A DNA stretch of 44,984 nucleotides. It comes from an uncultured Candidatus Bathyarchaeia archaeon (GTDB lineage: Archaea; Thermoproteota; Bathyarchaeia; Bathyarchaeales; B26-1). Location: contig CAZCOP010000001.1 of NCBI GenBank assembly GCA_964499825.1, positions 1-44,984 on the forward strand, given 5' to 3'. Below the pieces are notes generated by a model. That model was not told where the DNA came from. It saw nothing but the letters and a program-made list of their open reading frames with translations, and did no database searches. The translations under genes were made by a program, and so were the position numbers. How positions within the stretch are numbered: position 1 is the first letter of the stretch; each line of letters opens with the position of its first letter. Positions 469-11,222 of the stretch are shown in pieces.

Positions 469-684
469 ATGTCATCTACATTTACGATAAGGGTTCCGCG
501 TGAGTTGAAGGAGCGGATGAAGAGGTTTCGGGTGGAGTGGAGCGAGGAGATTAGGAGGTTCATTGAGGGGCAGATTAAGCGTCTGGAGTTGATCGAGGTT
601 GTCGAGGATGTCTGGTTGAGGGCTGAGAGGAGGCCTGTGAGGGTTGACTCAACCGTCTTGATAAGGGAGGATAGGGGGCGCTGA
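469..684 (+). CDS. vapB: VapB-type antitoxin (ribbon-helix-helix/CopG-like)
   Basis: 71 aa. The N-terminal TIRVPRELKERMKR is RHH-like. Its stop lies 2 nt before the start of a PIN-domain gene. Confidence 0.7.
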   Translation: MSSTFTIRVPRELKERMKRFRVEWSEEIRRFIEGQIKRLELIEVVEDVWLRAERRPVRVDSTVLIREDRGR

Positions 685-686
685 GT

Positions 687-1109
687 GTGATCTTGGACTC
701 AAGTATACTTGTGAAGCTGGTTCTAGCTGAGCCTGGTTCTAGGGAAGCTAAGGAGCTGGTGGTCAGCCTCTTGAGGGATGGCTACACCTTACATACCGTT
801 GATATAGCCCTCGCTGAGAGCTTGAATGCTGTATGGAAGCATGTGGTGATCCATAAGGATTTAGAAGCTGAAGCCGTGAGGGATGTTTTGGAGGATCTGA
901 TTAGGATATACTCAAAGCTGGGTGTCCTCTCAACCCCTGAGCTTTCCGAGGAGGCTATGGAGATATCCCTGATTCACAAGATAGCGGTCTACGATTCGCT
1001 CTATATAGCGGCGGCTAGGAAGCTTGGGACCACGCTATATACGGCTGACAAGAGGCTCCATGACGAATCGAGGGGGATAGCGTCATCTAGGCTGCTCGGA
1101 TCAGAGTAA
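687..1109 (+). CDS. vapC: VapC-type PIN-domain ribonuclease toxin
   Basis: 140 aa with a GTG start. The PIN acidic residues are in the expected order: ILDSS (Asp4), ..ALAESLN.., VYDSLYIAAA, YTADKR. Confidence 0.8.
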   Translation: MILDSSILVKLVLAEPGSREAKELVVSLLRDGYTLHTVDIALAESLNAVWKHVVIHKDLEAEAVRDVLEDLIRIYSKLGVLSTPELSEEAMEISLIHKIAVYDSLYIAAARKLGTTLYTADKRLHDESRGIASSRLLGSE

Positions 1110-1387
1110 TCCCTTAACCCTCCTACTAAGTGCTGTTCTTCGCTTCGGTATGTAGATAGCGAATAGCATGGACCAGGCAATCAGTGGTAGAGGTTGCACC
1201 CATGATGGGAACTCTGGTGCTCCACCGGAGATATGGTGTACTCTATGTATGGGTCGTAGGCTGTGCCTGTATAGTTTCTTGAACAGAAGGGCCACCGGTC
1301 GTTCTTGTCGTTGTCTGTTCCAGTCGTTATTTGCAGTCTGTATGTTATCCATGCTCTATTGTTGTTTATGTCGTCTTGTATAGTCAC
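1110..1387 (-). pseudogene. Decayed gene fragment, copy 2 (frameshifted paralogue of the fragment at 1-262)
   Basis: ORF 1181..1387 reads ..GTAYDPYIEYTISP. ORF 1101..1352, one frame over, continues SGGAPEFPSW. Together these match copy 1 (DGTPYDPYIEYTLSGDGAAEF). nt 1207-1267 are about 80 percent identical to nt 1-62 by eye. Confidence 0.35.
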
Positions 1388-1627
1388 CTTAACATTTATA
1401 CCAATCTACCCAACGTTTAGTGTTTCTATCCCGCTCATCATCCGTGGGTCGTTCCCTATCAACGAAGATCGAGATCACTACCATCTAGAGTTCCATAATC
1501 ATCTATACGTATTACGTTTAGATCTCCTAAGCCTGGGTTTGCTAATTAGTCTTTATTGTACGTAGTATCGTCATGGTTAACTTATAGACGGATATGTTGA
1601 GCATTTCTAATGGAACCTCTATAAATA

Positions 1628-2014
1628 TTAATTGATAGCGTTATCCCTTTTTGGTAGTTCGCTTGCTTCTCTCAGTCTATTATGGAAGCACGTCTCCATC
1701 CCGAGGTGGCATGCATAGCCCTTCTGTTTTACGAGGAATATCAGTGAGTCCCGGTCGCAGTCTACGAGTATGTCCCTCACCTCCTGGACGTTCCCGGATG
1801 TTACACCCTTCTTCATGACCCTCCCCTTAGACCTCCTGTAGTAGTGGGCGTACCCGGTCTGTATGGTCCTCTCTAGGGCCTCCCTGTTGACGTAGGCCAA
1901 CGTTAGAACCTGACTGGTCTTGTAGTCTTGGACGACTACGGGTATGAGACCCCCTCCCTTCTCGAAGTCCAGTTCATCTATGGTTACGGTTCTCAAACTC
2001 TTAGCTCTCTTCAT
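1628..2014 (-). CDS. hisI: Phosphoribosyl-AMP cyclohydrolase (HisI only, no HisE domain)
   Basis: 128 aa. [47 protein letters not shown] matches the HisI signature. It has a 4-nt ATGA overlap with hisF. Confidence 0.9.
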
Positions 2015-2829
2015 AGCCTTACAGGCACCCCCCTCTCGTTCAGGAACCTCTTCACAACAGGTATGGGATACTTATTATAATGGAAGACCGAGGCTGCTAG
2101 GGCTGCATCAGCGCCTCCAACCGTGAAGGCCTCAAGGAAGTGTTCAGGCCTCCCAGCCCCACCGCTAGCTATCACAGGTATATTAACCCTCTCAACTATG
2201 CTCCGCGTCAACTCGAGGTCGTACCCGTTCTCGGTTCCATCCCTATCCATCGATGTCACGAGCAGTTCACCAGCCCCAAGCCTAGCGGCCTCCACAGCCC
2301 ACCTGAGGGCGTCTATCCCGGTAGGCTTCCTCCCGCCATACGTGTAGACCTCAAACCAGCATACCCCTCCATCCCCAAGCTCCACCATGGTCTTAGATTC
2401 ATCCCTCCAGTATCTCCTCTTTGCGTCTATAGCCACAACCACGCACTGCCGCCCGAAGGTATCCGACAGCATCTCAACAAGCCTAGGGTTCTCAACGGCA
2501 GCCGTGTTCACCGAGACCTTGTCAGCTCCGTTGCATAGGATGACCCTCGCATCCTCTACGCTCCTTATCCCACCCCCAACCGTGAACGGTATATCAAGCT
2601 CCGAGGCTACAGCCCTAACAACATCCTTCAGTATCTCCCTCTTCTCGGGGGAGGCTGTTATATCGAGGAAGACAAGCTCGTCAGCCCCATCTTCACTATA
2701 CCTCCTACCCAACTCAACAGGATCCCCGGCATCCCTAAGGTTTACGAAGTTTATGCCCTTAACAACCCTCCCGTGGTCCACATCGAGGCATGGGATTATC
2801 CTCTTGGCTAGAACCATCCAGCTATACAC
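2011..2829 (-). CDS. hisF: Imidazole glycerol phosphate synthase, cyclase subunit
   Basis: 272 aa. [24 protein letters not shown] and the C-terminal ..IASGGAG.. motifs are typical of HisF. Confidence 0.92.
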
Positions 2830-3556
2830 CCCCCATCTTACGGATCGTCTCTATAGCATCCTTCAACGTGAACTTGCCCTCGTATAGGGCCTTCCCAACC
2901 ACGACGCCGTAGACCCCGACATCCCTCAGGAGGATCAGGTCTTCAAGGCTCCTGACACCCCCAGCAGCCATCACCTTGACGTTGAAGGCCTTACATATCC
3001 TTTCCAGGCTCTTTATATCAGGCCCTTGAAGGGTTCCATCCCTAGCTATCGACGTTATCAAGAAGTACTCAACACCCATATCCATGAATGTTGAGAGGGC
3101 CTCCTCAATCCTCACACCAACCCTTGAATGCCAACCCCGGACCATAACCTCACCGTCCAGGTGGTCTAAGGCTACGGCGACCCGGCTGGCGCCGTAATCA
3201 TCTAGAAGCCTTCCTATGGCCGTTCTATCCCTGAAGGCTAGGGAGCCCGCTATTACCCTCCATACACCCCCATCGAGTAGTTTTTTGGCTGTTTTCAAAT
3301 TCCTTATACCCCCACCGACTTGGAGGGGTACACCAACCGAGCTGGCTATCTCGCCTATCAACTGGCGGTTATCCCCCAAACCGAGTGTTGCGTCTAGATC
3401 GACTACGTGGATGATCCCCGCCCCCTCGGACTCCCACCTCTCGGCTACGGTTACGGGATCTCCCAAGTGTTCGTATGTTCTAACCTCCTCAGGCCTCCCC
3501 CTCGTGAGCCTCACAACCCTCCCACCCATCAAGTCTACCGCGGGTATAACCTCCAT
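2822..3556 (-). CDS. hisA: ProFAR isomerase (HisA)
   Basis: [20 protein letters not shown].. is the HisA N-terminus. I prefer the ATG at 3556 (preceded by gggtgg) to the TTG at 3586 used in the ORF track. Confidence 0.88.
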
Positions 3557-3563
3557 CCACCCT

Positions 3564-4169
3564 TCACCTCTTGAGAATCTCGGCAAAGTTCTTCAGTATC
3601 AAAGCCCCAGACTTCCCAGACTTCTCGGGGTGGAACTGGGTTCCAAATATACACCCGCTCGATATGACCGATGGAAACCTAACCCCATACTCAGTCTTCG
3701 CCGCAACCACATCCTCATCGTCCGGTTCTGCGTAGTATGAGTGGACGAAGTAGAAGTATGAACCCTCCTCTACGCCATCTAGGAGTTCGCTCCACCTACA
3801 CACCTCAAGCGTATTCCATCCCATATGGGGGGTCTTAACTCCACGGGGCAGCCTGACAACCCTCCCGCCTATCAGGTTTAGACCCCTCCCCCAACTCTCC
3901 TCACTCTCGCCGAAGAGTATCTGCATACCCAGGCAGATCCCGAGTAGTGGCCTACCCTCCCCCGACAGGTCCACCAGCACAGGCTTGAAGGGCTTGATGT
4001 TTCTAGACGCCGTGCTGAAGTTGCCGACGCCTGGTAGGACGACGCCGTCCACTCCGTTGAGCTCTCCCGGGGTTGAGGCTAAGACCACATCTAGATTTAA
4101 CCTCCTGAGTGCGCATCCTATGCTGAAGAGGTTCCCAACCCCGTAGTCTACAACCCCAACCTTCGGGAT
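3564..4169 (-). CDS. hisH: Imidazole glycerol phosphate synthase, glutaminase subunit (HisH); conserved N-terminus lacks a canonical start
   Basis: GICLGMQ (catalytic Cys) and FHPEKS are present. The conserved N-terminal strand IPKVGVVDYGVGNLFS is encoded at 4089-4169, in frame and immediately after the hisB TAG (4170-4172). The first canonical start is the GTG at 4088. Confidence 0.85.
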   Translation of the reverse strand: MPKVGVVDYGVGNLFSIGCALRRLNLDVVLASTPGELNGVDGVVLPGVGNFSTASRNIKPFKPVLVDLSGEGRPLLGICLGMQILFGESEESWGRGLNLIGGRVVRLPRGVKTPHMGWNTLEVCRWSELLDGVEEGSYFYFVHSYYAEPDDEDVVAAKTEYGVRFPSVISSGCIFGTQFHPEKSGKSGALILKNFAEILKR

Positions 4170-4745
4170 CTAGATCACCCCCTTAGCGCTTGGGATACCC
4201 CTCCTCCTCGGGTCGATCGAGACAGCCTCCCTGAGGGATAGTGCTAGAGCCTTGAATGCAGCCTCAACCTTGTGGTGGTCGTTAGCCCCATAATGGACTT
4301 GTACGTGTATATTCGCCTTAAGGGATGACGCTAGGCTCTCTAGGAAGTGGTACAGATCCTCGTAGGGTGTATCCTCGATGGCCACACCCTTCAGTTTGAG
4401 GTTTATCCTAGAGTAGGGTCTGCCGCCGAGGTCAACGGCGGCGGTCGCTAGGGAGCAGTCCATCGGGACTATGGCGTACCCGAACCTCCTTATCCCGGAT
4501 CTATCTCCTAAGGCCCTACTTATCGCCTCACCTAGACATATGGCTGCATCCTCGATAACGTGGTGCCTGAGGTCCCCTACAGCCTTAACCGTTATATCCA
4601 TCAAGCTGTGGACCGCTAGGGATCGCAGCATGTGGTCGGCGAAGGCGAAGCCCGTATCCACATCCGCCTCACCCCTACCGTCGAGGTTCACCTTAACGTA
4701 TATCTCGGTCTCCCTAGTCTTCCTCGAATATTCTGCAACCCTCAA
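4170..4745 (-). CDS. hisB: Imidazoleglycerol-phosphate dehydratase (monofunctional HisB)
   Basis: 191 aa. RKTRETEI.V.VNLDG.G...V.TG..F.DHML and the later ..H.VE..FKA.. motifs are present. The TTG start overlaps the stop of the upstream HAD gene (TTGA). Confidence 0.9.
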   Translation of the reverse strand: MRVAEYSRKTRETEIYVKVNLDGRGEADVDTGFAFADHMLRSLAVHSLMDITVKAVGDLRHHVIEDAAICLGEAISRALGDRSGIRRFGYAIVPMDCSLATAAVDLGGRPYSRINLKLKGVAIEDTPYEDLYHFLESLASSLKANIHVQVHYGANDHHKVEAAFKALALSLREAVSIDPRRRGIPSAKGVI

Positions 4746-5956
4746 AGCTGACCACCCTTCAAGGCTCTTAATACCTCTGGCAACTCGTTGATCGAAGGCA
4801 CTATAAGATCGGAGCTGAACTTAATGAAGCTTTGTAAGGTCTGGCTGCCCATCGATATGTATCTATATACACCTGCGAATAGGTATCGGGCGTCGAGCCT
4901 CCTAGCCTCCTCCACCATGAGTAGGTCGCCCATCGAGTCTCCAACGTATAGGGCTGAATCGAATGGTTCTAGGGCCTTGGCTGCCTCGAGGAGTGAGTAG
5001 GGGTTCGGCTTCTTCAGGTTCCCCACCGGTTGGCCCCTCCTCAACGCCTCACGCTCAGCCCTCATGACATCGTCATAGAAGATTAGGGCGTCTTTATTAA
5101 ACCTCTTTAGGATGTCCCCCAGTATGTAGTCGGCTGGCTTCCTTTGGCTTCCGGATGCTATGCCAAGCCTCCCCTCGCCAACTATCGACTCTAAGGCTTC
5201 TAGGGTTTCCTCCTTCACTATAACCCTCTCATTCATTATCAAGCCTGGAGAGTTGACAAACCTCGCCTCAACCCCGTGGACCTCCCTGTACAGCCTATCG
5301 CCGTAGAAGAGCTCCTCGAACACCGTTGGGATTACGCTCTCCCCAACATATCCCGGATAGGAAAAGAAAGCCTTGAGGCTTCTATAGAACTCTTGGAAGC
5401 CATCCACACCCCTGAACTCCCCGAGGAGGTTACCATCAACCGAGGCTATACCGGTCTCGTCGAGGTTCTCAGCGAAACCCTCCAACCCATCGACCAACTC
5501 CTCAACCTCCCCGCAGTTCACAACCCCACTGTTTAAGAGCTTCCTCACAGACCCCGCCACCATCTTGAACCTATCGTGGGGCTTCATCCCGGGCTTTACC
5601 ATCTTGATGCTCCTCTTTAGGGCCTCCCTAAACCCTTCAGGCATGTGGGATAGCAGGTACATGGTTATGCCGTAGGTTGTGTCCCAGTCGTCGTTGAACC
5701 CGCCGCTCCTCCTGAACGCGAAGATCACACCCTCGGGTATCATTTCCCCCGGGAGGCTACATCCCGTTAACCCGTTGATTATGTATGAAACCGCCTTTGA
5801 GATGGCTTTATCATAGGATTCCCTAACATCTATCAGGACCCCATCGCAGTCGAATATGATGGAGTCTACTCTGCGTAGATTCTCAACGCTGTCCCGCCTG
5901 ATGTAGGCAGACCCACCTCCAGTCTCAAACTTCACGTAATCCTCAATCGACCCCAC
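4742..5956 (-). CDS. HAD-superfamily phosphatase with a very large cap insertion (candidate histidinol-phosphate phosphatase)
   Basis: 404 aa. HAD motif I is IIFDCDGVLID (D36/D38), motif II is GIASGS (about residue 265), motif III is KKPNP, and motif IV is YVGDSMGD. About 220 aa lie between motifs I and II. The gene is embedded between hisC and hisB with overlaps on both sides. Confidence 0.75.
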   Translation of the reverse strand: MGSIEDYVKFETGGGSAYIRRDSVENLRRVDSIIFDCDGVLIDVRESYDKAISKAVSYIINGLTGCSLPGEMIPEGVIFAFRRSGGFNDDWDTTYGITMYLLSHMPEGFREALKRSIKMVKPGMKPHDRFKMVAGSVRKLLNSGVVNCGEVEELVDGLEGFAENLDETGIASVDGNLLGEFRGVDGFQEFYRSLKAFFSYPGYVGESVIPTVFEELFYGDRLYREVHGVEARFVNSPGLIMNERVIVKEETLEALESIVGEGRLGIASGSQRKPADYILGDILKRFNKDALIFYDDVMRAEREALRRGQPVGNLKKPNPYSLLEAAKALEPFDSALYVGDSMGDLLMVEEARRLDARYLFAGVYRYISMGSQTLQSFIKFSSDLIVPSINELPEVLRALKGGQL

Positions 5957-7088
5957 CGGTTAGAACCTCCCTGAAAGTCGTTATGAACTTGTCCATCACC
6001 GGTCTCGGCGCAACCGTAACCCTTATACAATCCTCAAGGTGGAGCACCCTCCCAAGGTTCCTGACTATTATCCCCTTCTCGAGGAGTCTCTCGTATAACA
6101 TGCGTGAATCCACCGATAGGCTTATGAGTATGAAGTTTGTCTCTGAGTCGAAGGCTCTGACCCCGTCAATCTCGTTCAGGAGCTTAATCGCCCTACTCCT
6201 CTCAACCTTCAAAGCCTTAACCGCCCTCCTCACAACCTCAACCCTATCCAGGAGCTTCAAGCCAACCCTCAGGGCTATGGAGCAGACGGCGTAGGGCATC
6301 TGGAACCTCTCATCTAGGGTTGACGCAAGCTCCTCATTCGAGACTGCGTACCCCAACCTCAAGCTGGCTATGCCGAAGGACTTGGAGAAGGTTCTGAGTA
6401 CGATGAGGTTCTCATACTCGTCGACGAGGTCGATTATTGACCGACCGGCGAAGTCTACGTAGGCCTCGTCGACCACAACTAAGCCGTTAAACCCCTCCAG
6501 CAGGCTCCGGATCGAGTCGGTATCGAACTGGTTGGCGGTTGGATTATTGGGTGAGCAGAGGAAGATTATCCTAGTCCTCGGCTTGGCGGAGTTAAGCATC
6601 CCATCCACATCTAGGGAGAAGTCCTCCCTCAGGGGTACGGCCTCGTATCGGGCTCTATGGATGCGTGTACACCGCTCGTATATGGAGAATGTTGGGGTCA
6701 CAGAGAGAGTGTGATCTCCGGGTTTGAGGAACGCCCTGGAGATGAGTTCTATCAGCTGGTCGCTCCCGGCTCCAAGAACTATCTGCCCGGTTGATACGTT
6801 CAAGTAACGGCTCAAAGCCTCAATCAGCTGGAGCTTCTCGTATCTTGGATATACCCTCGGGTCGTACTCCCCTACAACCTCCATGAGGATCGACCTTAAG
6901 AACCCTATCGGGACGAAGAAGTTCTCGTTTGAGTTCAGCTTCAGTATGCTGGCCGGATCCCTCCTTAACCTGCGGGAGAGATCCTCAACGGTCTCTCCAA
7001 CATCATACCTACTTAACCCCTCAGCCTCCCTCAGAACCTCCCTAACCCAGTCGAGCCCATCACCCTTCAAGCTGCACCCTCCCCTCAA
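5943..7088 (-). CDS. hisC: Histidinol-phosphate aminotransferase
   Basis: 381 aa. LNSNENFF.P, SPNNPT and FSKSFG.A.LRLGY (PLP lysine) are present. The start is TTG and its exact position is uncertain. Confidence 0.88.
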   Translation of the reverse strand: MRGGCSLKGDGLDWVREVLREAEGLSRYDVGETVEDLSRRLRRDPASILKLNSNENFFVPIGFLRSILMEVVGEYDPRVYPRYEKLQLIEALSRYLNVSTGQIVLGAGSDQLIELISRAFLKPGDHTLSVTPTFSIYERCTRIHRARYEAVPLREDFSLDVDGMLNSAKPRTRIIFLCSPNNPTANQFDTDSIRSLLEGFNGLVVVDEAYVDFAGRSIIDLVDEYENLIVLRTFSKSFGIASLRLGYAVSNEELASTLDERFQMPYAVCSIALRVGLKLLDRVEVVRRAVKALKVERSRAIKLLNEIDGVRAFDSETNFILISLSVDSRMLYERLLEKGIIVRNLGRVLHLEDCIRVTVAPRPVMDKFITTFREVLTGGVD

Positions 7089-8340
7089 CCGCTGATGCGT
7101 GGTTCGGCAGCCCCTCAGCTAGGGCTAGAGTCGTTATCTGATCCCTAACCTCGATGAGTCCATCCCTCGAACACTCGATTATATTGGTGATCTTAACGAA
7201 GTTCAGGACTGATAGCCCAGAGAAAACATGGCCGTAACCCCCAGTTGGGAGGATGTGGTTGGTTCCGAGGCAGTAGTCGCTGGCCGAGGCTGGGGAGTAG
7301 TCCCCGGTTAGGATGACGCCCGCTGAGGTTATCCTCCCAGCAATCTCGGCCGGGTTCTCGGTCATCACCTCTAGGTGTTCGGGTGCAAACTGGTTGACAA
7401 AGTCTACAGCTTCATCCATACCCCCACAGACAAGGATCAGCCCGTTCCTAGATAGGGCCTCAGCAACGATCTCGCCTCTAGGTATGGATGGAACAGTACG
7501 CTCAAGCTCCTCCAGAACCCTGTCGGCTAGGCCCTTAGAGGTCGTTACGAGTATGGAGATACAGCCAACACCGTGTTCGGCCTGCGAGATCATATCCAAC
7601 GCGACTATTCTCGGATCCGCTGATCCATCGGCCAGTATGAGGATCTCGCTTGGACCCGCCGGCATATCTATCGGTACATCCACGGAGACCAGCATCTTGG
7701 CAGCTGTGACATAGATGTTGCCGGGGCCGACTATCTTATCAACCGGCTCTATGGTCTCAGTTCCATAGGCGAGCGCCGCTACGGCTTGAGCTCCCCCAAC
7801 CCTGTAGATCTCTGATACACCGCATATATCCGCGGCTACTAGGGTTAGCGGCTCTATCCCTCCATCTCTCCTTGGTGGTGTGCAGATGGCTATTCTAGGT
7901 ACACCCGCAACCCTCGCCGGTACAACAGCCATCATCACCGTGCTTGGGTATGACGCCTCCCCTCCTGGGATGTAGCATCCTACGCTTCTGATGGGGGTTA
8001 CCCGTCTATAAACCATCAAGTTTTCCCCTTCTACTTTGAGGTTCAGCCTTTCAAGTGTGAGTTTCTCCAGCCTCTCCAGCCTCTCCTTGGCGAGTTTCAC
8101 CGCCGATATCTCCTCTCCACCAACCCTGCTGTAGGCTTCTTCAATCTCCCCCTCTGAAACCCTTATCTTGTTGGGTTCCAGCTCTACCCCGTCGAATCTC
8201 TTGGTAAATTCGATTAGGGCCTCATCCCCACGCCTCTTAACATCATCGATTATCTTGGAGACGTATGCCTTGAGCTTCGGATCTAGGTGCCTCTTAGATG
8301 GCCACCTCCCCTCTAGGAGCTCCTTCGGAGCTCGGTTCAT
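7060..8340 (-). CDS. hisD: Histidinol dehydrogenase
   Basis: 426 aa. GGAQAVAALAYGTETIEPVDKIVGPGNIYVTAAK, SQAEHG and APEHLE are HisD signatures. Confidence 0.92.
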   Translation of the reverse strand: MNRAPKELLEGRWPSKRHLDPKLKAYVSKIIDDVKRRGDEALIEFTKRFDGVELEPNKIRVSEGEIEEAYSRVGGEEISAVKLAKERLERLEKLTLERLNLKVEGENLMVYRRVTPIRSVGCYIPGGEASYPSTVMMAVVPARVAGVPRIAICTPPRRDGGIEPLTLVAADICGVSEIYRVGGAQAVAALAYGTETIEPVDKIVGPGNIYVTAAKMLVSVDVPIDMPAGPSEILILADGSADPRIVALDMISQAEHGVGCISILVTTSKGLADRVLEELERTVPSIPRGEIVAEALSRNGLILVCGGMDEAVDFVNQFAPEHLEVMTENPAEIAGRITSAGVILTGDYSPASASDYCLGTNHILPTGGYGHVFSGLSVLNFVKITNIIECSRDGLIEVRDQITTLALAEGLPNHASAVEGRVQLEG

Positions 8341-8356
8341 CCTCCTTATCCTGAGT

Positions 8357-9361
8357 TTACCAGTCCCCGTCGCTCCTCTCCCCCTTCTCCGTCTTCTTTG
8401 GTGTTATCTGGTCTAGTGGTAGAACCTGCCTCGGCTCGTAGACGACGAGTCCCTGAGCCAGCCTCCTCAGGGTTGGGAGGAGCTGGAGGAACTGATCCTT
8501 GTCGATGACCGTATTAACCGAGTACCAGTCCTTATCGGATAGGGGCGCTACGGTCGGCCTCTTCAACGCCGGAAGCCTCTCCAGCAGCCTTGGGAGGTTC
8601 TCCCTGCTCACGTTGACGAAGATGTGTAGCTTCTTCCTACCGTCTACGACGCCGCGGAGTAGGGTCAGTATGTCATATATCTTCTCACGCTTCTCCGGGT
8701 CCTTCAGGGACGACTTGTTCGCTATCAACACAGCCGTCGACTCCATGACAGTCTCGATCGGTTTCAGGTCGTTCTGCTCTAGGGTTGTGCCTGTCTCTAT
8801 AACCTCGAAGATGGCGTCTGCATCCTCGGGTGGTTTGGCCTCCGTGGCCCCGAAGGATAGGTATATGAGGACCCTATCGTTGTCGCCCTTCCTCCACCAC
8901 GGTGTGACCATGACCGGGTCTGAGTCGCCGTAGAGCCTACGGTAAGCCTCGTTGCCCTTCAGGTACTGGGCTGTCAGGTTTAGGTACTCCGTTGATATCC
9001 TCAGCGGCTTCCCCTCACGCGCGAACTCCTCTATCAGGCTTTTCAGGGAGTTTATCTTCCTCCAAGACTTTGGGACTGCGACCACAAGCCTGACGTGGGA
9101 GTGTTCGAGGTTTAGTAGAACCTCGACTTCCGCTCCGGTCTCCCTAACCCAGTCCAGCCCGGTTATCCCCACATCCTGTAGCCCCTCGCTTACAAAGATG
9201 GGTATCTCCTGAGGCCTCAATACCTTCAGCTCTATCTCCGGGTCGTTTATGGTTGGGCGGTAGGTCCTCTCCTCCCCTGTGATCACATATCCAGCCCTCC
9301 TCAGCGTCTGGAGCGTAGGCTCGGCTAGGTGTCCCTTCGGTATGGCAAATCTAACCTTCAC
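8357..9361 (-). CDS. hisG: ATP phosphoribosyltransferase, long form with C-terminal regulatory domain
   Basis: 334 aa with a GTG start. The N-terminal core (..FAIPKG.L...TL..L..AG.., DVGITGLDWV.E) and LRISTEYLNLT match HisG. It is the first gene of the operon. Confidence 0.85.
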   Translation of the reverse strand: MKVRFAIPKGHLAEPTLQTLRRAGYVITGEERTYRPTINDPEIELKVLRPQEIPIFVSEGLQDVGITGLDWVRETGAEVEVLLNLEHSHVRLVVAVPKSWRKINSLKSLIEEFAREGKPLRISTEYLNLTAQYLKGNEAYRRLYGDSDPVMVTPWWRKGDNDRVLIYLSFGATEAKPPEDADAIFEVIETGTTLEQNDLKPIETVMESTAVLIANKSSLKDPEKREKIYDILTLLRGVVDGRKKLHIFVNVSRENLPRLLERLPALKRPTVAPLSDKDWYSVNTVIDKDQFLQLLPTLRRLAQGLVVYEPRQVLPLDQITPKKTEKGERSDGDW

Positions 9362-9635: not shown

Positions 9636-10478
9636 TCACCGTTTCTTCCCCATATACTTGGCCAGGGCTGTCTCGACATCTAAGCCCTCATGGACTATCC
9701 CGCAGAGAACCCTAACCATCCCCGTTGGGTTCTCATGCTGGAAGACGTTCCTCCCGGCCGCTACGCCAGCTCCTCCAGCCTGTATGGAGTCATAGACCAT
9801 CTGGCAGAACTCCTCATCGGTCTTCGTCTTAGGTCCGCCCGCCATCACCACCGGCACAGGGCATCCCTTCACAACCTCCCTGAAGGTGTCGGGATCCCCT
9901 GTGTAGTTCGTCTTTATTATGTCCGCTCCGAGTTCGGCTCCTATCCTAGCCGCATGCCTCACAACCTCCACGTCGTATTCGTTCTTTATCTTCCTACCCC
10001 TAGGGTACATCATAGCTAGGAGGGGCATACCCCACTCTTCACACTGCTTGGCAACCTGACCGAGAATCCTCAGCTGTTCTGGTTCTGTATCTGAGCCTAC
10101 ATTTATGTGTATAGAGACCGCGTCTGCCCCGAGCTTTATTGCCTCTATGACATCCGCCACTAGAACCTTATTGTTTGGGTCCGGCCCGAGCAGTGTGCTT
10201 CCAGATAGGTGCATTATCAACCCTATATCCCTGCCGTACCCTCTATATCCAGCCTTTATTATCCCTTTATGAAGTAGAACGGCGTTTGCTCCCCCCTCGG
10301 CAACCTGGTTCACTATGCTCCTCATGTCATAGAGCCCCTTTATCGGCCCCATAGTTATCCCGTGGTCCATGGGTATTATCACCGTCTTCTTTGTGTTTCT
10401 GTTTATAACCCTGTCGAGCCTTATCCTCTTCCCTATCCCGGTCATTCTCTCACGCCCGGAAGGATCAAGTTTAACCAT
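9636..10478 (-). CDS. fba: Archaeal class I aldolase of the DhnA/FbaB family (fructose-bisphosphate aldolase, or the related ADH synthase)
   Basis: 280 aa. [26 protein letters not shown] (Schiff-base Lys region) and GRN.FQ are present. It is divergent from a phosphoglucose isomerase gene, which favours FBP aldolase. Confidence 0.7.
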
Positions 10479-10637
10479 CTTACATATGAACTGCTTTATA
10501 AAATTTCGATTTCATCATCTGGATTTTTTGTGTGCGCCTAAACGGCTGTGTCAGGAAACCTCACGGAAGGGTTTAGAAACTTTTATCTCCCTCAACTTCA
10601 AACTTAACTCCAAAAAAGAGGAGGTTCTCATTTCCAA

Positions 10638-11222
10638 TTGGCAAACTCGATAATCTACCTCACAACAGTCATAGACGGGGCTAGAGGCTTAAAACCGTAT
10701 AAGAGGAAGCTCACGAGGAGATTAAGCGACCTCCATGGATGCTTCCTCGATAAGGAGCTGGTTGAGGACATTCTCTCCAAGGGGGAGGACCCAATAATCT
10801 ACGAGGTCTATGAGGTACCGCAGGAACCAATCGACGGGTTGCTGAGTATAGGCTGCACGGTAATATACCCGGGTAAGGTAGGGGATGAATACTACTTCAC
10901 GAAGGGGCACTTCCACGTGAAGGAGAGTGCAAGTGAGGTCTACATAGGGGTTGAGGGTGAGGGTATAATCCTAATGCAGAACAGGGATGGCGAGACCGCA
11001 TACTCTAGGATAGAACCCAACGTTATCGTTTACATACCGCCAGGTGTGGCCCACAGAGCCATAAACGTAGGTTCGGGGAAGCTTGTCTTTCTGGCTGTAT
11101 ACCCATCAGATGCTGGACATGATTATGGCAGTATAGAGAAGATGGGCTTCGCGAAGCTTGTTGTTGAGAGGGATGGTAAACCCGAGGTTGTGGATAACCC
11201 AAACTACGTTAAGGCCTCGTAG
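10638..11222 (+). CDS. pgiA: Cupin-type glucose-6-phosphate isomerase
   Basis: 194 aa. RRLSDL.G.F.D, TVIYPGKVG.EYYFTKGHFH, YIPPGVAHR.INVG and AVYP.DAGHDYG..E..GF closely track the Pyrococcus-type cupin PGI as I recall it. The TTG start is 14 nt after gaggagg. Confidence 0.85.
   Translation: MANSIIYLTTVIDGARGLKPYKRKLTRRLSDLHGCFLDKELVEDILSKGEDPIIYEVYEVPQEPIDGLLSIGCTVIYPGKVGDEYYFTKGHFHVKESASEVYIGVEGEGIILMQNRDGETAYSRIEPNVIVYIPPGVAHRAINVGSGKLVFLAVYPSDAGHDYGSIEKMGFAKLVVERDGKPEVVDNPNYVKAS

What the first reader, a model, noticed from the sequence alone, without database searches (positions are those of the whole stretch)
4742..5956. HAD phosphatase with a ~220-aa cap at the exact HisB-N position: candidate missing archaeal histidinol-phosphate phosphatase
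The 404-aa ORF has all four HAD motifs: FDCDGVLID, GIASGS, KKPNP and YVGDSMGD. About 220 residues lie between motifs I and II, far more than the usual C1 cap, and there is also a 35-aa N-terminal extension. The gene overlaps hisC at its 5' end (14 nt) and hisB at its 3' end (TTGA), so it is co-translated with the pathway. In E. coli the HAD-type histidinol-phosphatase is the N-terminal domain of HisB, immediately upstream of the dehydratase domain. Here a free-standing HAD gene occupies that slot. None of the known HolPase types (PHP/HisK or IMPase-like HisN) is in the operon. My inference is that this is the HolPase of this lineage, and that the large cap provides substrate specificity or a regulatory function.
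Basis: partly seen in the sequence, partly recalled or inferred. Interest (0 to 1): 0.6.

Follow-up and report, generated by a model that had tools for sequence, protein, structure and literature searches.

The report
Archaeal HAD-type histidinol-phosphate phosphatase gene
The large-capped HAD hydrolase gene between hisC and hisB very probably makes the histidinol-phosphate phosphatase of this Bathyarchaeia archaeon, but it belongs to an enzyme family already shown to do this job in Nitrosopumilus in 2024, so it is a sound annotation and not a discovery.

Summary
A 404-aa ORF on the minus strand (4742-5956) has all four HAD motifs. It overlaps hisC by 14 nt and hisB by 4 nt inside a hisG-D-C-HAD-B-H-A-F-I operon.

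Kinateder et al. 2024 (PMC10804674, sections read) assayed Nmar_1556 (nmHisN), the HAD gene between hisC and hisB of Nitrosopumilus, as a specific histidinol-phosphate phosphatase. They defined a fingerprint, Y24-D25-K56-E64, with YDRD in the Thermococcus enzyme. They placed Bathyarchaeota sequences in the same network cluster.

- **Fingerprint:** the window protein carries Y48-D49-R82-D90 plus I52 and I78.
- **Homology:** it matches the Nitrosopumilaceae-type gene product at E 5e-45.
- **Fold:** the model has pLDDT 96.6, a HAD core and an all-helical cap. The closest solved structures are 1QYI and the Thermococcus phosphatase 6IAH.
- **Synteny:** 35 of 41 related Thermoproteota loci keep it next to hisB.
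- **No rival enzyme:** no PHP- or IMPase-type HolPase was recognised in the 92.8%-complete genome.

The scan reached the same verdict earlier on other DNA. Side note: no canonical hisE was found in this genome.

The parts
4742..5956 (-). nmHisN-type HAD histidinol-phosphate phosphatase gene (404 aa). It has an N-terminal beta-hairpin plus helix (residues 7-28), a Rossmann-like HAD core, and an all-helical cap of about 200 residues (48-245).
   Evidence: Translation. Pfam PF00702 at 1.8e-10. TIGR01548 at 61.5 bits, below its cut-off. Fingerprint Y48 D49 R82 D90. AlphaFold model with pLDDT 96.6. 1qyi at Z 27.0 and 6iah at Z 20.1.
5943..7088 (-). hisC (histidinol-phosphate aminotransferase), which makes the phosphatase's substrate. 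Its 3' end overlaps the HAD start by 14 nt.
   Evidence: PF00155 at 4.8e-50. Junction read.
4170..4745 (-). hisB, imidazoleglycerol-phosphate dehydratase domain only, with no fused phosphatase domain. Its TTG start overlaps the HAD stop (TTGA).
   Evidence: PF00475 at 1.6e-51 covering residues 31-171 of 191. Junction read.
7060..8340 (-). hisD (histidinol dehydrogenase), which uses the phosphatase's product.
   Evidence: PF00815 at 1.6e-157.
8357..9361 (-). hisG, long form; first gene of the operon.
   Evidence: PF01634 and PF08029.
1628..4088 (-). hisH (3564-4088), hisA (2822-3586), hisF (2011-2829) and hisI, PRA-CH domain only (1628-2014).
   Evidence: Pfam matches.

Best explanation
The gene encodes the cell's L-histidinol-phosphate phosphatase, a member of the archaeal nmHisN/toHisN family of capped HAD phosphatases.

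Inferred mechanism, from HAD chemistry and the published work on nmHisN:
- Asp36 attacks the phosphate of histidinol phosphate, and Asp38 acts as the general acid/base.
- Ser268, Lys316, Asp340 and Asp344 hold the phosphate and Mg2+.
- The helical cap closes over the site. Tyr48, Asp49, Arg82 and Asp90, packed by Ile52 and Ile78, recognise the imidazole and amino groups and give specificity.

The gene is translated together with hisC, which makes its substrate, and with hisB. It supplies histidinol to HisD.

Shown here: homology, motifs, fingerprint, fold and synteny. Inferred: activity of this particular protein and the residue roles.
For: 1. **Family assayed in print.** PMC10804674 (sections 8-10 read) reports that Nmar_1556, located between hisC and hisB, hydrolyses HolP (kcat 0.79 s-1, KM 73 uM, Mg2+) and none of nine other phosphate compounds. 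Its fingerprint is Y24 D25 K56 E64, with YDRD in the Thermococcus enzyme. Its cluster I holds Thaumarchaeota and Bathyarchaeota sequences.
2. **Homology.** P0001 aligns over its full length with the hisC-hisB gene product of a Nitrosopumilaceae-type genome (L115) at 28% identity, E 5e-45. In L115 the six published residues fall at exactly the published spacings (Y, Y+1, Y+4, Y+28, Y+32, Y+40; sequence). In P0001 they correspond to Y48, D49, I52, I78, R82 and D90.
3. **Fingerprint frequency.** YDRD occurs in 54 of 117 aligned representatives. Position 82 is Arg or Lys in 117 of 117, and position 90 is Asp or Glu in 114 of 117.
4. **Fold.** The model has pLDDT 96.6 and pTM 0.92, with a HAD core and 10-11 cap helices. 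Best solved matches are 1qyi (Z 27.0, 337 residues aligned) and 6iah, 'Phosphatase Tt82 from Thermococcus thioreducens' (Z 20.1, 240 of 240 aligned, 28% identity).
5. **Synteny.** 35 of 41 Thermoproteota loci have the gene directly upstream of hisB, after hisC or hisD. Of 80 loci from named genomes, 26 are linked to his genes. These are 4 of 4 Bathyarchaeota loci plus 22 loci that include records titled Anaerolineae, Chloroflexia, Armatimonadota, Abditibacterium, Atribacteria and UBP13.
6. **Co-occurrence.** In one 401-genome sample of the phylum, every family that carries the gene also carries IGPD, for example f3 8/8 and 8/8, f16 56/56 and 56/56, f24 17/17 and 17/17. Families without IGPD lack the gene (f17 0/16, f5 0/4).
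7. **No rival in the genome.** The three PHP proteins are CehA/McbA-family metallohydrolases, and TIGR01856 (HisJ family) gives no hit. The single IMPase-family protein scores best as FBPase/IMPase (214.6 bits) and only 58.2 bits against HisN, whose cut-off is 275. HisB-N-type matches stay at or below 29.8 bits against a cut-off of 84.15. The gene is single-copy.
Against: - No enzyme assay exists for this protein or for any roughly 400-aa Bathyarchaeia member. Identity to the Nitrosopumilaceae type is only 28%.
- The N. maritimus sequence itself was not in hand. The fingerprint mapping rests on a relative (L115) and on residue spacing. The paper's supplementary figures (one PDF) could not be read.
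- The family is not always linked to his genes. 6 of 41 Thermoproteota loci (L105, L106, L108, L109, L125, L126) and 54 of 80 named loci, nearly all Omnitrophota, show no his gene within the flanks.
- Many IGPD-positive lineages lack the gene, including the sister family f2 (0 of 25), where hisC abuts hisB directly. The enzyme is therefore not universal.
- The genome is 92.8% complete, so another HolPase cannot be ruled out.
- The related Thermococcus enzyme Tt82 was, as I recall and did not check here, described as broad in substrate range.
Confidence: 0.87

Rival explanations
1. It is a HAD phosphatase for a different small phosphate ester (phosphoglycolate, a sugar phosphate or phosphoserine) that merely sits in the his operon.
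For: JGI names many relatives 'phosphoglycolate phosphatase-like HAD superfamily hydrolase'. Weak NCBIfam matches to PGP and beta-PGM families appear. Subgroups of the family lie away from his genes.
Against: Those NCBIfam scores are far below the cut-offs (14.6 against 180; 20.9 against 153). nmHisN did not hydrolyse phosphoserine, glycerol-1-phosphate, fructose-6-phosphate or six others (PMC10804674). The HolPase fingerprint is complete. The position between hisC or hisD and hisB is kept across distant lineages, with translational coupling here.
Confidence: 0.06
2. The real HolPase is another enzyme in the genome (the IMPase-family protein on contig C79, or a PHP-fold hydrolase), and the HAD protein is redundant or has a non-catalytic role.
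For: One IMPase-family gene and three PHP-domain genes are present. IMPase-type and PHP-type HolPases are known families.
Against: The IMPase scores 58.2 bits against HisN TIGR02067 (cut-off 275) and best matches archaeal FBPase/IMPase. The PHP proteins pass only the CehA/McbA model, and HisJ-family models score at most 32.6 bits against cut-offs of 90 to 212. None lies near his genes. All catalytic residues of the HAD protein are intact.
Confidence: 0.04
3. It is bifunctional. Besides HolP it also strips the terminal phosphates of phosphoribosyl-ATP, standing in for the HisE that was not found. This would explain the unusually large cap.
For: PRA-PH (PF01503) was not found in the own genome. 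It was also not found in f3 (0/8), f4 (0/2), f16 (0/56, closed genomes) or f24 (0/17), all of which carry this HAD and IGPD. Families with PRA-PH mostly lack the HAD (f20, f22, f25, f31 and others).
Against: Family f2 lacks both the HAD and PRA-PH yet has the operon. By eye, 15 of the 140 HAD-positive genomes have both genes. nmHisN did not hydrolyse ATP or PRPP. The pattern follows a few clades, so it may simply reflect shared descent. Releasing pyrophosphate is not HAD chemistry. No MazG-like fold appeared among the fold matches, though that result is inconclusive.
Confidence: 0.03

Closest known systems
nmHisN (Nmar_1556), the HAD histidinol-phosphate phosphatase of Nitrosopumilus maritimus (Kinateder et al. 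2024, Protein Sci, PMC10804674; sections 8-10 read)
   Same: It has the same gene position (hisC-X-hisB), the same HAD core, and a single large all-helical cap inserted after motif I. The fingerprint positions are conserved (Y, D, K/R, E/D, plus two hydrophobic residues). Full-length homology to a Nitrosopumilaceae-type relative is E 5e-45. The paper's cluster I includes Bathyarchaeota.
   Different: The window protein is 404 aa, against about 325 aa in the Nitrosopumilaceae-type relatives. Its Asp-to-motif-II span is 232 residues, against about 178. Most of the extra length is one block near residues 110-153, in the least conserved part of the cap. Its fingerprint is YDRD, not YDKE. Identity is only 28%, and the protein has not been assayed.
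toHisN-type HolPase of Thermococcales (T. onnurineus; Lee et al. 2008, as cited in PMC10804674) and its solved relative 6IAH, 'Phosphatase Tt82 from Thermococcus thioreducens'
   Same: It has the same YDRD fingerprint type according to the paper. The profile of the family hits 6iah at E 4.2e-29, with the shared stretch ...DGVLIDVRESYD.... The structural match is Z 20.1 with all 240 residues aligned.
   Different: The Thermococcus enzyme is 240 aa with a much smaller cap (seven helices according to the paper). The window protein has 10-11 cap helices and an N-terminal hairpin.
PDB 1QYI (Q8NW41, structural-genomics target ZR25; function unassigned in the entry title)
   Same: This is the best structural match over core and cap together: Z 27.0, 337 of 380 residues aligned, rmsd 3.8. 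The profile match is E 2.9e-18 over the full length. A large-capped relative has therefore been solved.
   Different: Identity is 19-20%. The entry names no function, and its genomic context was not examined here.
E. coli HisB N-terminal domain (HAD-IIIA 'DDDD' histidinol-phosphatase; TIGR01656 and TIGR01261)
   Same: Same superfamily, same reaction, and a position immediately before the IGPD coding sequence.
   Different: It is a different HAD subfamily with almost no cap. P0001 scores 16.6 bits against a cut-off of 84.15. The paper argues for independent origins.
NCBIfam TIGR01548 (HAD-SF-IA-hyp1, a hypothetical equivalog)
   Same: This is the best NCBIfam match (7.4e-17). JGI names many Nitrosopumilaceae-type relatives 'TIGR01548 family'.
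   Different: The score of 61.5 bits is far below the curated cut-off of 140.2. The model has 197 positions and so describes a short-capped form.

Membership tests
nmHisN/toHisN-type capped HAD histidinol-phosphate phosphatases (Kinateder et al. 2024) | HAD catalytic core: DxD nucleophile motif, Ser/Thr motif II, Lys motif III and acidic motif IV | tested here: met
   D36 and D38, S268, K316, and D340 with D344. D36, D38 and K316 are invariant in 117 of 117 relatives.
nmHisN/toHisN-type capped HAD histidinol-phosphate phosphatases (Kinateder et al. 2024) | Specificity fingerprint Y24-D25-K56-E64 (variants R56 and D64 accepted, as in toHisN) | tested here: met
   Y48-D49-R82-D90 (YDRD), from the alignment to L115 and column counts. 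The mapping to the paper's numbering relies on residue spacing in L115, because the N. maritimus sequence was not in hand.
nmHisN/toHisN-type capped HAD histidinol-phosphate phosphatases (Kinateder et al. 2024) | Accessory hydrophobic residues at positions 28 and 52 | tested here: met
   I52 and I78. These columns are Ile, Val or Leu in 106 of 117 and 108 of 117 relatives.
nmHisN/toHisN-type capped HAD histidinol-phosphate phosphatases (Kinateder et al. 2024) | One large all-helical cap inserted after motif I, with no second insertion | tested here: met
   The model shows helices only between residues 48 and 245, then the core strands.
nmHisN/toHisN-type capped HAD histidinol-phosphate phosphatases (Kinateder et al. 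2024) | Significant sequence homology to the Thaumarchaeota hisC-hisB gene product | tested here: met
   E 5e-45 and 28% identity over residues 10-397 against L115. L115-L118 lie between hisC and hisB.
nmHisN/toHisN-type capped HAD histidinol-phosphate phosphatases (Kinateder et al. 2024) | Mg2+-dependent, specific hydrolysis of L-histidinol phosphate | not testable with these tools
   This needs an enzyme assay or genetic complementation.
HisB-N type histidinol-phosphatase domain (TIGR01656, HAD-IIIA) | Score above the curated cut-off of the family model | tested here: not met
   16.6 bits against a cut-off of 84.15, with only motif III-IV matched.
NCBIfam TIGR01548 (HAD-SF-IA-hyp1) | Score above the curated cut-off (140.2 bits) | tested here: not met
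   61.5 bits in two stretches. It is related but outside the model's trusted range.
PSPase-like HAD-IB HolPase (paHisN type) | HAD-IB architecture, by family model score | tested here: not met
   TIGR01488 (HAD-IB) scores 12.2 bits against a cut-off of 45. The paper describes two small cap insertions in paHisN, whereas the model here has one large one.

The most novel reading that the evidence does not exclude
The lineages that carry the Asp/Asn-type large-cap enzyme show no canonical HisE. These are this genome, f3, f4, the closed genomes of f16, and f24. The oversized cap might therefore let this one phosphatase also remove the terminal phosphates of phosphoribosyl-ATP, so that it serves two steps of histidine synthesis. 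The evidence does not exclude this, but it mostly speaks against it. Family f2 lacks both genes, some genomes have both, and nmHisN did not hydrolyse ATP or PRPP.
Probability: 0.03. Interest if true: 0.75.

Novelty: already known. Interest (0 to 1): 0.12.

Why it matters
The practical value is annotation. The gene and more than a thousand relatives are labelled 'hypothetical protein', 'HAD family hydrolase' or 'phosphoglycolate phosphatase-like'. Pathway tools still report the histidinol-phosphatase step as the most common gap: it is missing in 42 of 208 prototrophs in GapMind 2026 (PMC13759103, passages read). Naming this family HisN closes that gap for most Bathyarchaeia and Nitrososphaeria genomes. 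It does not change what is known about the enzyme class.

Two by-products may be worth more than the finding itself:
- Relatives in several bacterial phyla carry Arg at the fingerprint's second position and sit next to his genes. The 2024 paper left that variant's function open.
- The canonical HisE step appears to be missing in whole lineages.

Tried and rejected
- **Supplement unreadable.** The supplement of PMC10804674 (figures S18, S19 and S25, and the sequences) is a PDF that cannot be read here. I therefore could not confirm that 400-aa Bathyarchaeota proteins were in the paper's cluster I, and I could not take the N. maritimus sequence from it.
- **N. maritimus entry not retrieved.** A search seeded with the Nitrosopumilaceae-type relative listed its best 120 of 3732 hits. 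These carried Nitrosotenuis and Thaumarchaeota names but no N. maritimus entry.
- **Cap fold.** I asked whether the cap resembles another fold, such as a MazG/HisE-like bundle. The Foldseek and VIA searches of the whole model returned only HAD proteins. This is inconclusive for the cap, because the cap was not folded and searched alone.
- **Downstream ORFs as a hidden hisE.** The two small ORFs after hisI (1101-1352 minus strand, 1305-1565 plus strand) have no Pfam match. Against the related loci, only the second ORF matched, and only the near-identical L001, so neither is conserved in more distant relatives. I rejected them as genes.
- **Rfam.** The whole window gave 0 matches at gathering score.
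- **Omnitrophota neighbours.** The neighbours of four loci (L016, L019, L033, L038) are FtsH, a PP-loop ATPase, LptF/G, DsbD and IlvD. They give no functional lead.
- **Profile search in genomes lacking the gene.** A profile search (A1) in five HAD-negative genomes found only generic HAD-core matches of at most 33 bits in proteins of 220-250 aa. No family member was found.
- **Literature on a hisE gap.** A search for a known hisE gap in Thaumarchaeota gave nothing usable in the listing or in the GapMind 2026 supplements.
- **Earlier notes on this genome.** None exist.
Full report
**What is there.** The finding's coordinates hold a 404-aa ORF on the minus strand with a GTG start at 5956. Pfam identifies its neighbours on the same strand as hisG (8357-9361), hisD (7060-8340), hisC (5943-7088), then the ORF, then hisB with the IGPD domain only (4170-4745), hisH, hisA, hisF and hisI with the PRA-CH domain only. 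The ORF start lies 14 nt inside hisC. Its TGA stop shares the bases TTGA with the TTG start of hisB. The nucleophile Asp36 and motif II Ser268 are 232 residues apart. Pfam sees only the C-terminal half of the HAD core (PF00702, residues 243-351, 1.8e-10). The best NCBIfam model is TIGR01548 at 61.5 bits, below its cut-off of 140.2. The HisB-N domain model TIGR01656 gives 16.6 bits against a cut-off of 84.15.

**Organism and family size.** Close relatives carry Bathyarchaeota or Bathyarchaeia names, and a named record holds the same operon at 94-99% protein identity. One search found 1185 relatives at E<=1e-3 among the 8000 candidates scored. One search found 861 cluster representatives at E<=1e-3 and 144 at E<=1e-30. 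Most are 300-420 aa long.

**The function is already in print.** A full-text search led to Kinateder et al. 2024 (PMC10804674; outline and sections 8, 9 and 10 read).
- They purified Nmar_1556 of Nitrosopumilus maritimus and measured HolP hydrolysis (kcat 0.79 s-1, KM 73 uM with Mg2+).
- They found no activity on nine other phosphate compounds, including ATP, PRPP and phosphoserine.
- They describe one large cap insertion of nine predicted helices.
- From an alanine scan they derived the fingerprint Y24, D25, K56, E64, with I28 and I52 as accessory residues.
- The Thermococcus onnurineus enzyme has R56 and D64.
[quoted passage not shown] In it, 50.0% of sequences have YDKE, 14.3% have YDRD, and most of the rest have D25N.
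- The only paper in the library that names Nmar_1556 is this one.

**Is the window protein that enzyme?** I could not obtain the N. maritimus sequence, because the supplement is an unreadable PDF. I therefore used relatives from genomes of the same phylum.
- A 401-genome sample gave 140 genomes with a match at E<=1e-5. One family (f16) matched in 56 of 56 genomes, with closed 1.6-Mb genomes and proteins of about 325 aa.
- Four such loci (L115-L118) have the gene between hisC and hisB in a hisG-D-C-X-B-H-A-F-I operon.
- The database relatives of the L115 protein carry Nitrosotenuis and Thaumarchaeota names, and JGI often labels them 'TIGR01548 family'.
- In the L115 protein the residues Y, D, I, I, K and E occur at exactly the relative spacings of the published fingerprint.
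- P0001 aligns with it over residues 10-397 at 28% identity, E 5e-45. The correspondences are Y48, D49, I52, I78, R82 and D90, which is the YDRD type.
- In an alignment of 117 representatives, YDRD is the commonest combination (54 of 117), followed by YNRD (22 of 117). Position 82 is always Arg or Lys. This matches the paper's description of its cluster I.

**Structure.** AlphaFold2 with that alignment gave pLDDT 96.6 and pTM 0.92. The model has three parts.
- A beta-hairpin and helix at residues 7-28.
- The Rossmann-like core.
- Helices only between residues 48 and 245, about 10-11 of them.

The best solved matches are 1QYI, a 380-residue structural-genomics protein (Foldseek E 2.1e-12; VIA Z 27.0 with 337 residues aligned), and 6IAH, 'Phosphatase Tt82 from Thermococcus thioreducens' (Z 20.1, all 240 residues aligned, 28% identity). 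Generic HAD-IA proteins follow at Z 15-18. The family profile hits the same two entries by sequence, at 4.2e-29 and 2.9e-18. Compared with the Nitrosopumilaceae-type relatives, the Asp-to-motif-II span is 232 residues against about 178. Most of the excess is one block near residues 110-153, in the least conserved segment of the protein (mean top-residue frequency 0.21, against 0.47 for the flanking cap parts). The fingerprint residues lie in the conserved proximal cap. Nothing points to a regulatory module.

**Context across genomes.** Of the 41 related Thermoproteota loci examined, 35 have the gene directly upstream of hisB, after hisC or hisD. These 41 are the 29 best hits plus 12 that I chose to sample other families. 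The 6 without his genes in the flanks are L105, L106, L108, L109, L125 and L126.

Of 80 loci from named genomes, 26 carry his genes within 4 kb. These are 4 of 4 Bathyarchaeota loci and 22 bacterial loci whose record titles include Anaerolineae, Chloroflexia, Armatimonadota, Capsulimonadaceae, Abditibacterium, Atribacteria and UBP13. The other 54, nearly all Omnitrophota, do not.

The fingerprint separates three groups.
- Archaeal members have Y-[D/N]-[R/K]-[D/E].
- The his-linked bacterial members have Arg at the second position, like the paper's cluster II and its delta-proteobacterial clusters, whose function the authors left open.
- The Omnitrophota members mostly have Leu there (a few Thr or Ile), and their neighbours are unrelated housekeeping genes.

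At family level, every lineage of the sample that has the gene also has IGPD, and lineages without IGPD lack it. The converse does not hold. f2 (same order), f20, f22, f25 and f31 have IGPD but not this gene. In three f2 genomes hisC abuts hisB directly.

**Other HolPase types in this genome.** The genome is 92.8% complete. The three PHP-domain proteins pass only the CehA/McbA metallohydrolase model, and the HisJ-family model finds nothing. The one IMPase-family protein scores best as archaeal FBPase/IMPase and reaches 58.2 bits against a cut-off of 275 for HisN. HisB-N-like matches stay at or below 29.8 bits.

**Verdict.** The enzyme kind, its operon position and its Bathyarchaeota members are published, so novelty is 'already known' and interest is low. 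Earlier agents of this scan reached the same conclusion on other genomes (for example a 402-residue HAD between hisC and hisB).

**Left unexplained.** No canonical HisE (PF01503) was found in this genome. It was also not found in f2 (0/25), f3 (0/8), f4 (0/2), f16 (0/56) or f24 (0/17), although the control genomes all ring and other families of the phylum have it. By eye, 15 of the 140 genomes with the HAD gene also have PRA-PH, and these carry the divergent variants. This anti-correlation is the only support for a bifunctional reading. Family f2, which lacks both genes, and the paper's negative ATP and PRPP assays argue against it. I rate that reading at 0.03.

Noticed in passing
whole genome G000; operon at window 1628-9361: No PRA-PH (HisE, PF01503) was found in the own genome (92.8% complete), and hisI here is PRA-CH only. 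In the same 401-genome phylum sample it was also not found in f2 (0/25), f3 (0/8), f4 (0/2), f16 (0/56, closed genomes) or f24 (0/17), all of which have IGPD. Most families with PRA-PH lack the nmHisN-type HAD. The PR-ATP pyrophosphatase step appears unassigned in whole lineages.
   Followed up: partly
L131, L132, L133 (genomes G077, G061, G234; family f2, same order): These are otherwise syntenic hisG-D-C-B-H-A-F-I operons in which hisC abuts hisB with no HAD gene. The family profile finds only generic HAD cores elsewhere in these genomes. Their HolPase is unidentified.
   Followed up: partly
L035, L040, L042, L047, L048, L054, L055, L058, L060, L061, L063, L066, L072 and others: Bacterial relatives sit beside hisB or hisD and carry Arg at the fingerprint's second position. 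Their record titles include Anaerolineae, Armatimonadota, Abditibacterium, Atribacteria and UBP13. This gene-context evidence supports a HolPase role for the Arg variant, which PMC10804674 left in question.
   Followed up: partly
L005-L079, mostly Omnitrophota (for example L016, L019, L033, L038): About 50 Omnitrophota relatives have mostly Leu at that position (a few Thr or Ile) and no his gene within 4 kb. Their neighbours are FtsH, a PP-loop ATPase, LptF/G, DsbD and IlvD. Their function is open.
   Followed up: partly
window 469-1109 (+): A PIN-domain ORF (687-1109; PF01850 at 6e-13) is preceded by a 71-aa ORF (469-684) that ends 2 nt before it. This looks like a VapBC-type toxin-antitoxin pair just beyond the end of the his operon.
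   Followed up: no
window 1110-1627: About 500 bases between hisI and the PIN gene have no conserved ORF and no Rfam match.
   Followed up: partly
window 3564-4088 (-); L003, L004, L091, L092: hisH is short (174 aa, with the GATase match starting at profile position 43). In some relatives' operons the hisH match is partial (L003, L004) or missing (L091, L092) between hisB and hisA.
   Followed up: no
window 9636-11222: A DeoC/LacD-family aldolase (9636-10478, minus strand) and a cupin-type glucose-6-phosphate isomerase (10638-11222, plus strand) flank the operon's upstream side.
   Followed up: no
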